Shown here piece after piece: positions 19,200 through 55,855 of a DNA stretch of 64,000 nt; the stretch's first letter is position 1, and each line of letters starts with the position of its first letter. Below the pieces are notes generated by a model, which worked only from the letters and a program-made list of their open reading frames with translations, was not told the origin of the DNA and ran no database searches. A program made the position numbers and the translations under genes. This DNA is from Octopus vulgaris (taxonomy: Eukaryota): the NCBI GenBank assembly GCA_951406725.2, contig OX597816.1:169508001-169572000 (forward strand), given 5' to 3'.

Positions 19200-20109
19200 T
19201 GTTTATATGTATTGGTTCTTGAGCCATTGCTGCGGAAGGTGGAGGCACTAGTGGGTGCGACGCATGATCTTTGGTGGGGAAGAAAAGCTACGGCGTATGC
19301 GGATGACAGCTCCATCATCGTGGCGGATGAGGGCTAGCTTCCAGTGGCGGAAGAGGCCATCAAAAGTTACGAGGCGGTGGCAGGAGCAAAGGTTAACAAG
19401 GACAAGACGGTCGGTGGGCAACTCGGCACCTGGAGGGGAAAGCCGATGGCGTCCAATAATGTCGTGGGGCGTTGGACGAAAGGTCCTGTTAAGCTGCTCC
19501 GAGTCCGGTTTGGTCTGGACCTCCAGACAGATAAAAATTGGAGTGAGGTGACCGGGTTTGGGTGGACGTTATCCTTGCTAGAGAGTGCGGAGGTGGTGCA
19601 GATGTTTATAGCATCAGTTATCATCTACCGTCTGACCTTGGTGCCTTGCCCCGATTTGTGGCTGAACAAGTTGGAGAGAGTCATTTTCCGCTTTTCGCGG
19701 AAGGGAGGAAACCTCTTGTGAAGCGCTCTGTCTTCTACCAGAAACCGCTACAGGGTGGATTAGGGATACCTTGGAAGAAAATGCGAAAATTCGCGTTAAG
19801 GTTGAGGCACTTCTTGCTTTACCTGGATAGAGAGCAGGTGTGGTCATTGCATGTCCGGTTCTATCTTCAGCAGTTAACGTCCTTAACGGACATTGGTACA
19901 TGGATCAAACAGAGACCTAGGCTGGGGGACTGGCAATTGGAGTGTCGTCAGGCACTTCAGCTATTCTCTCGGGCGGGCAATGCCGGCAGCAGGAGTTCCA
20001 CCTCGGATTTTTATAGCAGGTTGGTGGAGTATATGTTCGAAGACGCCTGTTTGTCTGTCCTCGTTCGTCCTCTCTTTGTAATGCCTGTATGGCAAATTTT
20101 AATGAAATA
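19200..20109 (+). pseudogene. Tx1/L1-type LINE ORF2 (RT) fragment with internal deletion and 3' tail
   Basis: LYVLVLEPLLRK..AYADDS..YEAVAGAKVNKDK..GGLGIP..ALRLRHF; ends ATGCCTGTATGGCAAATTTTAATGAAATA joined to SINE A. Confidence 0.88.
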
Positions 20110-20249
20110 AAGAAGCTTATTTCCCAACTACATGGTTCCGGGTTCAGTGCCACTCTGTGTCACCTGGGTCAAGTGTCTTCTACTATAGTTTCGGGTCGAC
20201 CAAAGCCTTGTGAGTGGATTTGGTAGACGGAAACTGAAAGAAGCCCATC

Positions 20250-20285
<36 letters not shown>

Positions 20286-20518
20286 CGGGAAGCTTTATGA
20301 AAATAAACAAAAGACGAAGGCAGGTTTACGGAAATAAACAAAAGACGAAGGCAGGTGGAATACAAACAAACAATTGTATTAGTATGGCGCTCAGGAATAT
20401 AAATAAAACAAGTCTTTTACGTTTCGAGCCTACGCTTTTCAACAGAAAGATACACAGAGAAGAAACACAAAAAGATGGAGAGAAAAAAATGCGTGCAGAG
20501 GCTAACGAATCAACATGG

Positions 20519-20582
<64 letters not shown>

Positions 20583-20765
20583 CTGTGTGTGTCTGTGTGT
20601 GTGTGTGTCTGTGTGTTTGTCCTCCGATCACCGAGTGACAACCGGTGTTGGTGTGTTTACGTCCTCAAAACTTAGCAGTTCGGCAAAAGAGACTGATAGA
20701 ATAAGAACTAGGTTTTTAAAAAATAATCCCTGGGATCGATTTATTCGACCAAAATCCTTCTAATC
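20110..20765 (+). mobile_element. SINE family A lacking first ~24 nt, interrupted in its internal (TA)n
   Basis: Starts AAGAAGCTT; resumes after 20520. Confidence 0.85.
20283..20520 (-). mobile_element. Short Penelope-like element with hammerhead-like motif (20413-20450)
   Basis: Same family as 45215-45421; (TA)n on both sides; minus strand TCTTT CTGTTGA AAAGCGTAGGCTC GAAAC GTA AAAGA. Confidence 0.7.
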
Positions 20766-52189: not shown

Positions 52190-52386
52190 ACGGCGCTTTG
52201 GGTAAAAGAAAATACAAAAGGATAAGTTAATTATGATTTTATTCAACATATTCCCCTCTTAGGTTCATATACTTATTACAGCAGTCCTTCAGTTTTTCTA
52301 AGCTCTCTAAAAGAATTCGGAAGTTTGGACTTCTAGCCAGGCCTTTCGTGACAAAGCCAGGAACTTTTCAGCCTCATCCCCTGCAT
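52190..52386 (-). mobile_element. mariner-derived non-autonomous remnant
   Basis: GCTGAAAAGTTCCTGGC TIR-like end; CNKYMNLRGEYVE* resembles mariner C-terminus. Confidence 0.55.
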
Positions 52387-52439
52387 ATACGACGATAGGC
52401 TTCCTTGCAATTTCCTTATACCTAATGACACTTTCTTTT

Positions 52440-52790
52440 ATTTCTTTTATTTTATTCGTTTCAGTCATTTTGTCTGCAGCCATGCTGGAGCACCGCCTTT
52501 AGTCGAGCAAATCGACCCCAAGGACTTATTCTATCGGTCTCTTTTTCCGAACCGCTAAGGTAAACACACCAGCATCGATGTCAAGCGATGTTGGGACACA
52601 CACACACACACACAAGCACACATACACACATATGTATATACGACGGGCTTCTTTCAGTTTCCGTCTACAAAATCCACTCACAAGGTATTGGTCAGCCCGG
52701 GGCCATAATAGAAAACACTTGCCCAAGGACTGAACCCGGAACCATGTGGTTCGTTAGCAAGCTACTTTCCACACAGCCACTCCTGCCCCT
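52440..52790 (-). mobile_element. SINE family A with small deletions
   Basis: Family motifs. Confidence 0.85.
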
Positions 52791-52899
52791 ACACTGATAA
52801 GTTGCTGCTCAAATCACGGCTTTAATAGAAAGCATTTATTCAAAGTGTTATGCAGTGTTATAGGTGCAGGAGTGGCTGTGTGGTAAGTAGCTTGGTAAC

Positions 52900-55126
52900 G
52901 GTTGCTTCTGCGCATGTGCGAGTCAGTGTTGTGTTTGGCACTGAAGCGGTGAAGATGTGCTATTGAAGCCGTCTTGAATTGAAAACTTTGGAAGCCCCAT
53001 GTAAGGTAAGATTCTGTTTTCTGGGTCCAGTGGGAGTTTTTGTTGAGAATTGTTTTTTACAGGCAGGAAGTCCTACTGGATTCAGAATTCTGATTCTGCC
53101 GACATGTGGCAAATATATTTTTCTCGCTGAGAAAATTTTTGGGGGCGTATCCGTCTTCAATAAATTGAGTAAATATTTTTCTCACGTAATTGTGAGAATT
53201 GTATTGTGCTGTGAAGAACTTTTATGAATTGTGAAAACTACTACTTCGCAAGAAAATTATAAAAATAAGCCACTATTGGATTACCTTTCGGACCCATTTT
53301 TGTGGAGGTTGTGTTGCAGTTGCGGCGTTCCAGGTTCAACCCAGGCCGGGAGTACCGCAAGGCCAGAATATTTTTGCTGTGTTTTTTCTGTTTATTAACT
53401 TTCTTTTGAACTTCATTTAACCCCCCCTTTTGTTTTTTTCTTTATTGCGACTTTCCGTTGATTTCTTCCCTTCTGTTGTGCTTTCTCCTTTTTGTTTTTT
53501 CAAAAATCTATCAAATTTTATTTGGACTTTTGAACTTTTTTCTTCCTGCTTTTTGAGTTTAATTTGAATATATTTTAAAAAAAACATGGCAATGAAAAAT
53601 AACAAAATTTTGGAGTGGGAAATCATACCACCTAAAAAGTGGTTAAAAGACCGTGAAGATAGGACGGTGGTGTTGAGAACCTACACCAAGGCACTCGACA
53701 CCATCGCCCTATTCGAAAAGACGGCAATTGAGGAGGAGTTGGAAGAGTATTTGCCAACAATTAAATTCATTTCCAGGGGTGTCAAATATGCAACGGTGTG
53801 GTTGCTATTTGACACCCCTGAAGAGGCTTGCAAATTTGCTAGCAAACCCCTGGAGGGTAAGGAAATCTTATTCCTGCCCACGTACAAAAAAAAGAAATTG
53901 ATGAAAGCTTGGATTTGCGGATTGCCACCCGACATAGAACCCGAGTGGATAGAGGAGACTATCCGCCGGGGTCTGGGTGACAGCGAAACTAAGCTCCTCA
54001 ATGTAAAAGTTCTTCCTGCGGCTGCTTGGGTTGGGTCAAAAGCAATTTTGACCCTGTGGACCCAATCAGCCAATCTGGTTCTTCCAGATTTTTTGAAAAT
54101 GGCCGGGTGCAGGTACCCGGTGATGCTTGAGGGTCGCCCCCCTAAGTGTCATCGGTGCTTGGAGTCCGGCCACATAAAGAAGAACTGTCCTCGGGAACAA
54201 AATAGGATCCCGGAACAGTTAAGTAAAACCCCTCTAGAAGAGGGAACGATAACGGCCGAGAAAGCAGATGACTCCTCAAACAGAGGCCGAAAGAGGAAGG
54301 TGAGCAACAATGGGTGCTCACCAAAGGATAATAGGGATGAGGAGAGGAAGGCGAATCTTCCAGCCACGGAGGAGACGCACCCTCCCTCAGTTGAAAAGGG
54401 GAAAAAAAAAGAAAAAGCGAAAAAAAAACGGGACATTACCGGCTGTCAGTGTAGCACCGGAATGTCCCGGAACTACGTCGGTTGGGGTTGTGCCACCGAC
54501 AAGAGAAGGAATACCGTAGGCGGGAACTGTGCCGCCAACGAAAGAACTGAACGTATTGGTCCTCTTCTATAGAGGAGGAGAAATTGAAAAAGTGATGGAA
54601 GAGCACTACAAGGGAGCACCTTTAGCCTTCACACAGGACCCCGAATGGCCTCCGCAGGTAGCTGTGGAGGCCGTGGCGTTCGACGTGACGCTTGGGCTAA
54701 AGGAGCTCAATGAAGATTATAACTTGGTCCCGGGCGACGCGAACTCGGAACTTGATTACGTTCTGAGGGAGGCGTGGTTGATGGTGGAGGGCGCGGGCAC
54801 AAGCTATTTCGAGGACGATATGTATTATTAGTAATGGACTTAAGTCCAAAAATTGAAAAATTGTAAGAGGATTAATACCTCGTTTTGTATTAATAATGGA
54901 CTGCTAAGTCCAAAAATTGGAAAAATTGTAAGAGGTTTAATACCTCGTTTTGTGTTTATCTTTAAAAAGAACAATGTTTTAGAGAAGCGAAAGTCGGCGG
55001 GCGCTTTTTGTCTTCTCCCATCCTTATCATCTTTCTTTCATTATCATTCACCTCATTAATGTCCTCGTCCAGCCCGCAAAGCTAACTTAATCTGTGTACT
55101 GCCTTTATGGCAAATGTTTTGAAATA
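52900..55126 (+). mobile_element. ORF1-only (HAL1-like) non-autonomous Tx1/L1-type retroelement
   Basis: 15-bp TSD AAGTAGCTTGGTAAC (52885-52899, 55127-55141); ~690-bp 5' UTR, ORF1, ~300-bp 3' UTR ending GAAATAAA; no EN/RT. Confidence 0.85.
53586..54831 (+). pseudogene. LINE ORF1-like nucleic-acid-binding protein with CCHC zinc knuckle (328-aa open frame; ancestral ~415 aa)
   Basis: WICGLPPDIEPEWI..LPDFLKMAGCRYPVMLEGRPPKCHRCLESGHIKKNCP (CX2CX4HX4C); probable frameshift in A-runs ~54400-54428 and TAG at 54517 before the in-frame 54529-54831 segment. Confidence 0.85.
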
Positions 55127-55855
55127 AAGTAGCTTGGTAACCAACCACATGGTTCCGGGTTCAGTCCCACTGCGTGGCATCTTGGGCAAGTGTCTTCTGC
55201 TATAGCCCCGGGCCGACCAATGTCTTGTGAGTGGATTTGGTAGACGGAAACTGAAAGAAGCCTGTCGTATATATGTATATATATGTGTGTGTTTGTGTGT
55301 GTGTGTATGTCTGTGTTTGTCCCCCAAGCATTGCTTGACAACCGATGCTGGTGTGTTTACGTCCCCGTCACTTAGCGGTTCGGCAAAAGAGACCGATAGA
55401 ATAAGTACTGGGCTTACAAAGAATCAGTCCCGGGGTCGATTTGCTCGACTAAAGGCGGTGCTCCAGCATGGCCGCAGTCAAATGACTGAAACAAGTAAAA
55501 GAGTAAAGAGAGTGGGATAGAAACCAAACAAATGAGTTCGCAAAGCGAAATTCTAAACTACATAACCATGCCGGTTCACCCATAGTTTTGTATCGTCGTT
55601 GCAGTTGTGGCTGTTATTTACCGACGTTGAACTAACTTAGGGTAATATTCATTCATCAAACACATTAAATTACGTATGAGATGAAAAACAAATCCAGTCA
55701 GGAAGATCAGTTTTGATTAGAACTAGGAACGGCAGAAGCTTGTCTATCTTCTGATACTGCGTGCTCTCAGCTAATTTTTAAAAAAATGTCAACAATATAA
55801 CAATATTCTCCACAAAATATGTGAATATATAATTAAGTTGCGTGGAGATAATTAA

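What the first reader, a model, noticed from the sequence alone, without database searches (positions are those of the whole stretch)
19200..55141. Two retroelements share a 3' tail and join SINE A at the same nucleotide: candidate SINE-targeting Tx1 system
Seen: the Tx1-type RT fragment ends TGTAATGCCTGTATGGCAAATTTTAATGAAATA|AAGAAGCTT (20077-20118). The ORF1-only element ends TGTACTGCCTTTATGGCAAATGTTTTGAAATA|AAGTAGCTT (55095-55135). Both also have TGTCCTCGT just upstream. Both junctions fall at GGT^AAG in the tRNA-like head of SINE A, in two different SINE subfamilies 35 kb apart. Known: Tx1-clade endonucleases are often sequence-specific for multicopy targets (tRNA, snRNA, microsatellites, other transposons). 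Inference: an autonomous LINE and an ORF1-only satellite use a common 3' recognition signal and the most abundant SINE as a safe landing site, just downstream of its A box. This rests on only two junctions, and the 19200 copy lacks its 5' junction.
Basis: partly seen in the sequence, partly recalled or inferred. Interest (0 to 1): 0.88.

Follow-up and report, generated by a model that had tools for sequence, protein, structure and literature searches.

The report
LINE family aimed at SINE heads
In this animal genome (probably an octopus) a family of long jumping genes and a family of one-gene passengers sit by the hundred at one exact base inside a very common short repeat, and both carry near their end a short sequence complementary to that landing site which changes when the site changes, so their RNA likely helps the nicking enzyme pick the spot.

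Summary
Confirmed and extended. Of 500 exact copies of the shared 3' tail in the genome, 426 run straight into the same SINE base; chance is about 1 in 10,000 or less. The partners are 5.4-5.7 kb two-ORF LINEs (endonuclease, reverse transcriptase, zinc finger; one intact 1140-codon ORF2) grouping with U2-inserted Keno-like Tx1 elements, and 2.2 kb ORF1-only elements with ORF1 under purifying selection. Split SINE heads, 13-17 bp duplications and mixed tandem arrays exclude a chimeric unit. Three RNA features emerge: a 4-bp stem with compensatory changes; a 3'UTR motif antisense to the target whose allele tracks the target allele (226:2 versus 1:19); and a 5' target copy that carries the element's allele, not the site's, in 15 of 15 informative full-length copies. 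Sister families target U2 gene starts and (ATT)n. Transposon-targeting Tx1 is known; a SINE target was not found in ten paper searches, but Repbase was not searchable. The scan has noted this system repeatedly in this genome and similar ones in three other genomes; the antisense lead came from such a note and was retested here. New variant of a known kind.

The parts
19204..20048 (+). Decayed fragment of ORF2 of the SINE-targeting LINE (ORF2 residues about 670-950: end of the RT domain and thumb), with stops, a frameshift and small gaps; no 5' junction
   Evidence: 85% DNA identity to full-length copies L062 and L064; 74-78% amino-acid identity to the intact ORF2 P0001
20049..20109 (+). 3' tail of the LINE copy, joined to the ORF2 fragment by an internal deletion of about 740 bp that also removed the antisense-to-target motif
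   Evidence: alignment jumps from L062 7373 to 8114; no antisense match above shuffles
20082..20094 (+). 4-bp stem with 5-nt loop, the shared 3' signal
20110..20795 (+). Host SINE body (AAGAAG allele) from the insertion site on, interrupted by microsatellites and an insert; end approximate
   Evidence: BLAST matches 20106-20267 and 20584-20753 to the other host copy; sequence
52861..52884 (+). 5' head of the second host SINE, with the A-box-like motif at 52873-52883
   Evidence: head is tRNA-like against shuffles, z 2.2-4.5 for 8 tRNA types
52885..52899 (+). 5' copy of the 15-bp target duplication; shares a rare G at position 11 with the 3' copy
52900..55126 (+). Full-length ORF1-only element (2227 bp), no ORF2 remnant, no poly(A)
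   Evidence: 95-99% identical over about 1.9 kb to about 20 other copies; tblastn with ORF2 finds nothing in it
53586..54831 (+). ORF1 (RRM-like region plus CCHC knuckle), frameshifted here in an A-run into a 328-aa frame (53586-54572) and a 103-aa frame (54520-54831); uninterrupted relatives encode 414 aa
   Evidence: purifying selection
54826..54953 (+). Two copies of a 65-bp unit in the 3'UTR
55079..55088 (+). Motif antisense to target positions 1-9 (one extra base in this subfamily)
55100..55112 (+). 4-bp stem with 5-nt loop, the shared 3' signal
55127..55141 (+). 3' copy of the 15-bp target duplication
55142..55510 (+). Rest of the host SINE (AAGTAG/TAAC allele), B-box-like motif at 55158-55168
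   Evidence: 93-95% identical to intact SINE copies at 43003, 50363 and 15476

Best explanation
A family of two-ORF LINE retrotransposons and a family of ORF1-only passengers sit in hundreds of copies at one exact base in the head of a very abundant SINE, and they likely get there by target-primed reverse transcription after the LINE's endonuclease nicks that sequence, with the passengers likely borrowing the LINE's ORF2 protein. Shown: the junctions, the intact endonuclease-RT-zinc-finger ORF2, ordinary 13-17 bp duplications around truncated and off-target copies, mixed head-to-tail arrays, no poly(A), and three shared RNA features. Inferred steps: (1) the bottom strand is nicked between T and A in a TT/A step, as with human L1, by recognition of primary sequence, since off-target sites resemble the SINE site; (2) ORF2p binds the 3' stem-loop and starts cDNA at a fixed point; (3) the 3'UTR motif antisense to target positions 1-9 pairs with the target sequence, either with the top DNA strand or with read-through RNA, and has followed a one-base change of the SINE; (4) a second nick about 15 bp downstream leaves an overhang, and because full-length RNA starts inside the donor's own target copy, the cDNA end anneals to that overhang and overwrites it from about position 10; (5) the site is regenerated, so later elements stack up; each hit separates the SINE's A box from its B box.
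For: 426 of 500 tails followed by the target hexamer; 77 of 89 inspected loci are SINE sites (72 by alignment score, 5 by eye), 12 are not. Independently of the tail pattern, 24 of 29 RT-selected copies keep a tail and all 24 run into the target (22 by script, 2 by eye). Eleven LINE copies with both junctions span 4.5-6.5 kb; ORF2 has Exo_endo_phos, RVT_1 and zf-RVT and the catalytic endonuclease residues align with human L1. Arrays mixing both elements at one site: L064, L066, L067, L070, L076. Exact duplications of 13-17 bp at 5 of 12 off-target sites and around truncated copies L020, L118, L019. Off-target sites match the target hexamer at 54 of 72 positions. Stem: 48 of 48 cells paired, outer pair UA 9, CG 2, GC 1, reached by 1 of 500 shuffles. 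Antisense allele: LINEs with AGCTAC sit 226:2 in AAGTAG:AAGAAG sites, LINEs with AGCTTC 1:19; the same switch occurs in the ORF1-only 3'UTR at another distance. 5' copy carries the element allele in 15 of 15 informative full-length copies, and a one-base deletion absent from the site in 12 of 14 type B copies. ORF1 dN/dS 0.09-0.27 in 9 comparisons.
Against: No biochemistry and no RNA ends: nick position, start of transcription and trans-mobilisation are inferred. Copies are not independent events; the antisense switch may be as few as two changes, and element age and SINE age are confounded. Three ORF1-only copies with the AC allele sit in AAGAAG sites. The antisense match is above shuffles in only some subfamilies; in the window's own subfamily it is interrupted (6-nt exact match, 71 of 300 shuffles), and it is weak or absent in the two sister families. 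The window's ORF1-only copy is the exception to the 5' rule: it mirrors the site's rare base at position 11, the only one of 12 listed copies with a variant at positions 10-15 (other than 13) to do so. The inner stem pairs were built into the search pattern; only the outer pair is a free test. 7 of 12 off-target sites show no clear duplication within the fetched stretch.
Confidence: 0.85

Rival explanations
1. Site choice is made by the endonuclease alone; the antisense motif pairs only with read-through RNA (a hairpin that sets the RNA's 3' end or its recognition) and tracks the target allele because donors sit in that allele, not because it guides insertion. This is a variant of the best explanation, differing in step 3.
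For: Folding the last 60-95 nt plus 16 nt of flank pairs the motif with the read-through target in all 3 elements folded; no poly(A) at any junction seen; sister families with other targets differ in endonuclease sequence, 51-59% identical, and lack a clear antisense motif; known Tx1 specificity is attributed to the endonuclease (PMC4494074, passages).
Against: Does not by itself explain why young AC-allele LINEs almost never enter the 21,246 intact AAGAAG sites (2 of 228), unless the endonuclease changed at the same time.
Confidence: 0.5
2. Tail plus SINE body is one chimeric retroposon amplified as a unit by the SINE's own partner LINE.
For: The 5' target copy is element-specific, which shows that some target sequence travels with the RNA.
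Against: The SINE head lies upstream and is as diverged as the body (4.3% versus 4.7%); one element type sits in both SINE alleles (type A: 18 and 10); 51-bp and 52-bp truncated copies lie between head and body with duplications; arrays and off-target copies exist.
Confidence: 0.02
3. The real target is a tRNA or snRNA gene, and the SINE is hit as a look-alike.
For: The SINE head is tRNA-like; the sister family enters U2 genes at their first bases; Keno-like relatives duplicate a 16-bp U2 sequence that loosely resembles the SINE site.
Against: 0 of 30 fetched U2 loci carry an insertion at the Keno site; a tail-to-tRNA-Arg junction pattern gave 1 match against 1 in the control and that match is no tRNA; none of 12 off-target flanks looks like a tRNA half (by eye); the resemblance to the Keno site is reached by 64 of 1000 shuffles; the elements' own antisense motif and 5' target copy match SINE alleles.
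Confidence: 0.07
4. Insertion is loose and the pattern results from selection removing copies elsewhere, or from tethering to Pol III factors on the SINE.
For: About 12% of tails are outside SINEs; the site lies between A and B boxes.
Against: Single-base precision and fixed orientation; 97-99% identical young copies show the same pattern; off-target sites share the target's sequence; the site is reused after the B box has been pushed kilobases away (arrays).
Confidence: 0.05

Closest known systems
Transposon-targeting Tx1-clade LINEs: Xenopus Tx1 in Tx1D (piggyBac), crocodilian Tx1-Mar in Mariner-N4_AMi with SINEU passengers, Tx1-9_AMi in Harbinger, Tx1-8_Crp and Tx1-4_AMi in LTR elements (PMC4494074; passages and section 15 read)
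   Same: APE-type LINE that targets another abundant mobile element; non-autonomous passengers share the target; tandem insertions sandwich a 16-bp duplication.
   Different: The target here is a tRNA-like SINE head; the passenger is a protein-coding ORF1-only element, not a SINE; fidelity is about 88% to one base; a covarying antisense motif is not mentioned in the parts read.
Keno (Tx1 clade, U2 snRNA genes), Kibi and Koshi (microsatellites), Dewa (tRNA spacer), Mutsu (5S) (named in PMC4494074 and PMC3706591; passages; the 2004 source paper was not seen)
   Same: Nearest anchored relatives in the RT tree are elements inserted at the Keno site of U2 with 16-bp duplications; the lineage here has likewise split into repeat-gene, microsatellite and transposon targets.
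   Different: Only 28-30% amino-acid identity; different targets; no insertion at the Keno site in 30 U2 loci of this genome.
HAL1 (half-L1) (PMC5753468; passage)
   Same: Non-autonomous, encodes only ORF1p, maintained by selection.
   Different: HAL1 derives from L1-clade elements and is not described as site-specific in the passage read; here ORF1 is only 26-30% identical to the partner's and the element is site-specific with a stem-loop tail instead of poly(A).
R2 elements whose RNA keeps upstream 28S sequence (PMC3774820; abstract) and SART1Bm/R1Bm RNA-target annealing (PMC7265360; passages)
   Same: Target sequence carried on the RNA is proposed to anneal at the 5' junction and give uniform junctions; short target-like RNA stretches are proposed to pair with the target.
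   Different: R2 has a restriction-like endonuclease and an HDV-like ribozyme (none found here by Rfam); the SART1 stretches are target-sense and pair with the nicked bottom strand, whereas the motif here is antisense, so it would pair with the top strand or with read-through RNA.
Dada DNA transposons in tRNA A boxes (PMC8869645, PMC3706591; passages)
   Same: Insertion at or beside the Pol III A box of multicopy tRNA-type sequence.
   Different: DNA transposons, true tRNA genes; the word SINE does not occur in either main text.

Membership tests
L1 group non-LTR retrotransposon | Two ORFs; ORF2 with N-terminal AP-like endonuclease, RT and C-terminal zinc motif | tested here: met
   Pfam PF03372, PF00078, PF13966 on P0001; best solved-structure match human L1 ORF2p, E 7e-66; ORF1 upstream
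L1 group non-LTR retrotransposon | Variable 5' truncation and target-site duplications | tested here: met
Tx1 clade | RT phylogeny with named Tx1 references | tested here: inconclusive
   Groups with five U2-inserted Keno-like elements (FastTree support 0.96, 50 sequences; 0.22 in the 183-sequence tree); phmmer 388-449 bits to these against 226 to human L1. No named Xenopus Tx1L and no vertebrate L1-clade sequence was in the tree; the IQ-TREE run timed out
Tx1 clade | ORF1 with CCHC knuckle, not the vertebrate L1 ORF1 type | tested here: met
   zf-CCHC in P0002 above cut-off, in P0003 just below; no other Pfam family
Tx1 clade | Sequence-specific insertion into a multicopy target | tested here: met
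Tx1 clade | Endonuclease itself cleaves the target specifically | not testable with these tools
   needs a nicking assay
Keno | Insertion inside the U2 snRNA gene at the Keno site | tested here: not met
   0 of 30 fetched loci, of 90 matches
HAL1-like element | Encodes ORF1 only, no ORF2 remnant, multicopy with own junctions | tested here: met
HAL1-like element | ORF1 kept by purifying selection | tested here: met
   dN/dS 0.09-0.27 for the first 210 codons in 9 comparisons; 2 near-identical pairs uninformative, 1 failed
HAL1 (strict) | Derived from an L1-clade partner by loss of ORF2 | tested here: not met
   ORF1 28-30% identical to partner LINE ORF1s, 26-31% to the (ATT)n family, 24% to the U2-start family: an old separate lineage of the Tx1-like group
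HAL1-like element | Mobilised in trans by the partner's ORF2p | not testable with these tools
   inferred from shared site, stem, antisense motif and mixed arrays
tRNA-derived SINE (host) | tRNA-like head with A and B boxes, very high copy number | tested here: met
   z 2.2-4.5 against 8 tRNA types, parent tRNA unresolved; ARAGORN and Rfam find no tRNA gene; at least 111,885 intact sites
Named octopus SINE families (OK, OR1, OR2; CORE or Deu superfamily) | Match to the published consensus | not testable with these tools
   no SINE library on hand; OR2 as a CORE SINE is named in PMC4758252 (passage), OK and OR1 are recalled

The most novel reading that the evidence does not exclude
The 3'UTR motif is a built-in RNA guide: it pairs with the top strand of the target DNA and, together with a loosely specific AP-type endonuclease, selects the site, so that a one-base change in the RNA retargeted both the LINE and its ORF1-only passenger from one SINE subfamily to the next. 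With the donor's target copy carried at the RNA 5' end as well, this would be an AP-endonuclease LINE whose insertion site is partly programmable through its RNA.
Probability: 0.25. Interest if true: 0.9.

Novelty: new variant of a known kind. Interest (0 to 1): 0.64.

Why it matters
It reverses the usual relation: here a LINE uses a SINE as its landing site and, by splitting A box from B box, would disable each copy it hits. One young lineage in one genome has three different targets (SINE head, ATCG-starting RNA genes and repeats, ATT microsatellite) with ORF2 proteins 61-64% identical and uninterrupted copies of two of them, which makes the open question of how AP-type LINE endonucleases gain and switch sequence specificity directly testable by domain and RNA swaps. 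The covarying antisense motif gives a precise one-base test of whether RNA takes part in site choice; if so, it would add a new kind of site-specific insertion tool beside R2.

Tried and rejected
Chimeric-unit and tRNA-gene readings rejected (see rivals). Self-targeting by this SINE (lead from earlier notes): of 139 distinct SINE tails in held DNA, 3 were loosely followed by a target-like string, none convincing by eye, and 6 by a new head; not supported for this SINE, though other SINE families do sit at the target copy in L266 and L269. Target switch from the Keno site by sequence likeness: 64 of 1000 shuffles score as well, and the nearest sisters have other targets; left as a weak lead. 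Ribozyme at the element 5' end: Rfam gave only microsatellite-driven miRNA matches in 5 loci. A downstream-promoter-like motif at position 29 from the start of the target copy in 7 of about 21 5'-end lineages, but not in the three youngest types, lineages not independent; lead only. Expression: no RNA holder listed. Laying four runs' contigs on the locus could not show an empty orthologous site because SINE copies swamp the joints. Cluster look-up gave no useful names. Atlas search of ORF1 gave CCHC and ZCCHC3-like RNA-binding clusters, scores 0.89-0.93, a lead only. Two papers were not held (PMC85248, PMC2923044).

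
Full report
Observation. The ORF1-only element spans 52900-55126 between a SINE head (52861-52884) and the rest of that SINE, with the same 15 bases on both sides. The RT fragment spans 19204-20109, has lost about 740 bp at 20048 and has no 5' junction.

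Genome-wide test. The tail pattern has 500 exact matches in G000 (control 0); 426 are followed directly by AAGWAG. I inspected 89 of the first 100 listed matches, including all 16 that lack the hexamer: 72 align to the SINE at the same base, 5 more are SINE sites by eye (deleted body or a second element next), 12 are outside SINEs. The 11 not inspected all have the hexamer. Intact target sites number at least 21,246 + 53,223 + 37,416, so a random insertion would hit one with probability 2e-5 to 2e-4. A selection independent of the tail, the 29 best relatives of the RT fragment, gave 24 with a tail, all running into the target; 5 have no tail in the fetched stretch.

The autonomous partner. Of 20 long stretches fetched, 11 show both junctions, spanning 4.5-6.5 kb, 5.4-5.7 kb for most. 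L064 holds an uninterrupted 1140-codon ORF2 with endonuclease, RT and zinc-binding domains; catalytic endonuclease residues align with human L1. Five metagenome relatives sit in U2 genes with a 16-bp duplication, the Keno target as described in PMC4494074 (passages); P0001 scores 388-449 bits against them and 226 against human L1 and groups with them at support 0.96 in a 50-sequence tree but only 0.22 in a 183-sequence tree. No named Tx1 or vertebrate L1 was in the trees, so Tx1 membership is likely, not proven.

The passenger. ORF1-only elements of about 2.2 kb come in several subfamilies with exchanged 5' ends; uninterrupted copies encode 414 aa, the window copy is frameshifted. ORF1 is homologous to the LINE's (26%, E 1e-20) but no closer to it than to sister families, and is under purifying selection (dN/dS 0.09-0.27). 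No ORF2 remnant is present. LINE and passenger occur in mixed head-to-tail arrays, each unit separated by one target copy (L064, L066, L067, L070, L076).

True insertion, not a chimera. Heads upstream are as diverged as bodies downstream (4.3% of 45, 4.7% of 43). The 3' target allele goes with markers in the SINE body. Copies truncated to about 50 bp lie between head and body (L013, L020). Five of 12 off-target copies have exact 13-17 bp duplications, and the 12 sites match the target hexamer at 54 of 72 positions, which points to recognition of primary sequence.

Three RNA features. (a) A 4-bp stem with a variable 5-nt loop just before the end: in 12 distinct versions all 48 cells pair and the outer pair, which the pattern left free, occurs as UA, CG and GC. 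(b) A motif antisense to target positions 1-9, about 72 nt before the junction in LINEs and 36-40 nt in passengers. Copies are related, so this may be two events, and age is a confounder; but the change is at the matching base in two unrelated 3'UTR backbones. The match beats shuffles in 4 of 18 SINE-family tails tested clearly (0-1 of 300) and 3 more marginally (9-15 of 300), and not in the window's subfamily or clearly in the sister families. (c) In 48 full-length passengers of three 5'-end types the 5' target copy is fixed by type: where the site's allele at position 13 differs, the 5' copy shows the element's allele in 15 of 15, and 12 of 14 type B copies carry a deletion at position 10. 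The window copy is the one exception for a neighbouring position. This fits an RNA that starts inside the donor's target copy, as proposed for R2 elements that keep upstream 28S sequence (PMC3774820, abstract).

Sister families. A family 63-64% identical in ORF2, sister in the tree with support 1.0, inserts at ATCG starts: of 30 loci, 4 at U2 genes, 21 at a short repeat (by eye), 5 other; one repeat copy gave a weak hammerhead match (27 bits, cut-off 52). A third family, 61% identical, is followed by (ATT)n in 30 of 30 loci and has many uninterrupted 1145-codon frames and tandem arrays.

Literature. Tx1 families that target DNA transposons, LTR elements, U2, U5, 5S and microsatellites are known (PMC4494074, passages and section 15; PMC4640811, PMC3706591, PMC8869645, PMC3747384, passages); HAL1 is known (PMC5753468, passage). 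Ten searches listed no paper describing a LINE aimed at a SINE, a site-specific ORF1-only element, or this octopus system; most hits were seen as listings only. The library lacks most subscription papers and Repbase Reports, and no supplements were read, so an existing Repbase note is possible. The scan itself has reported what looks like this system at least eight times in this genome and similar cases in three other genomes; these are unchecked notes, not independent support.

Verdict. Real, and a new variant of a known kind. Site-specific insertion by an L1-group, probably Tx1-clade LINE with an ORF1-only partner: 0.85. RNA guiding of site choice at the DNA level: 0.25. Interest 0.64.

Noticed in passing
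L305-L307 (G000:C3:20.81-20.83 Mb), L311-L312 (G000:C23:43.31 Mb), L315-L343: Sister LINE family inserting at the first bases of U2 snRNA genes (first 14 nt of U2 on both sides, tandem copies), a site different from Keno's, and more often at the ATCG start of a short repeat.
   Followed up: partly
L322:1055-1125 and 1412-1482 (-); flanks of L319-L343: A dispersed and tandem repeat of about 200-360 bp that starts with ATCG like U2 and gives a weak hammerhead ribozyme match (HH9, 27 bits, cut-off 52, E 2e-4); possibly a retrozyme-like element (name recalled), itself the target of a LINE.
   Followed up: partly
L345-L374; arrays at G000:C4:93.80-93.83 Mb, C47, C50: Very young sister LINE family followed by (ATT)n in 30 of 30 loci, many uninterrupted 1145-codon ORF2 frames, tandem period about 5.87 kb.
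   Followed up: partly
5' ends in L064, L072, L077, L079, L080, L094, L096: A downstream-promoter-like motif (consensus recalled) begins exactly 29 bases from the start of the 5' target copy in 7 of about 21 lineages with otherwise different sequence, which would put a transcription start near the insertion site; absent at that place in the youngest passenger types.
   Followed up: partly
L082-L117, L235-L264: ORF1-only elements are modular: three 5'-end types share one body from position 340, and type B also occurs on a second, 60-70% identical ORF1.
   Followed up: partly
L266 and L269: Other tRNA-like SINE families sit directly behind the 15-bp target copy, as if inserted at the same junction.
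   Followed up: no
window 24613-24962 (-): A further decayed L1-group ORF2 fragment, 33-44% identical to P0001, with no recognisable tail or SINE junction.
   Followed up: partly
window about 18740-19130 (+): Sequence just upstream of the RT fragment reads by eye like a decayed Tigger/pogo transposase piece (recalled, not tested).
   Followed up: no
window 30564, 31789, 34196, 59857: A fourth recurrent allele of the SINE target region (T at position 11), so that allele is not private to single copies.
   Followed up: no
L151, L155, L156, L158, L159; L161:70-140: Keno-like elements in metagenome contigs with U2 on one or both sides; L161 has a U1-like stretch at its 5' end by eye (no Rfam match at cut-off).
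   Followed up: partly
runs X16-X20 (coded organisms B, C, D): Runs labelled as three other organisms hold 53-68% of the sampled words of the ORF1-only element, and their contigs cover its length, so the family is probably shared with related species.
   Followed up: partly
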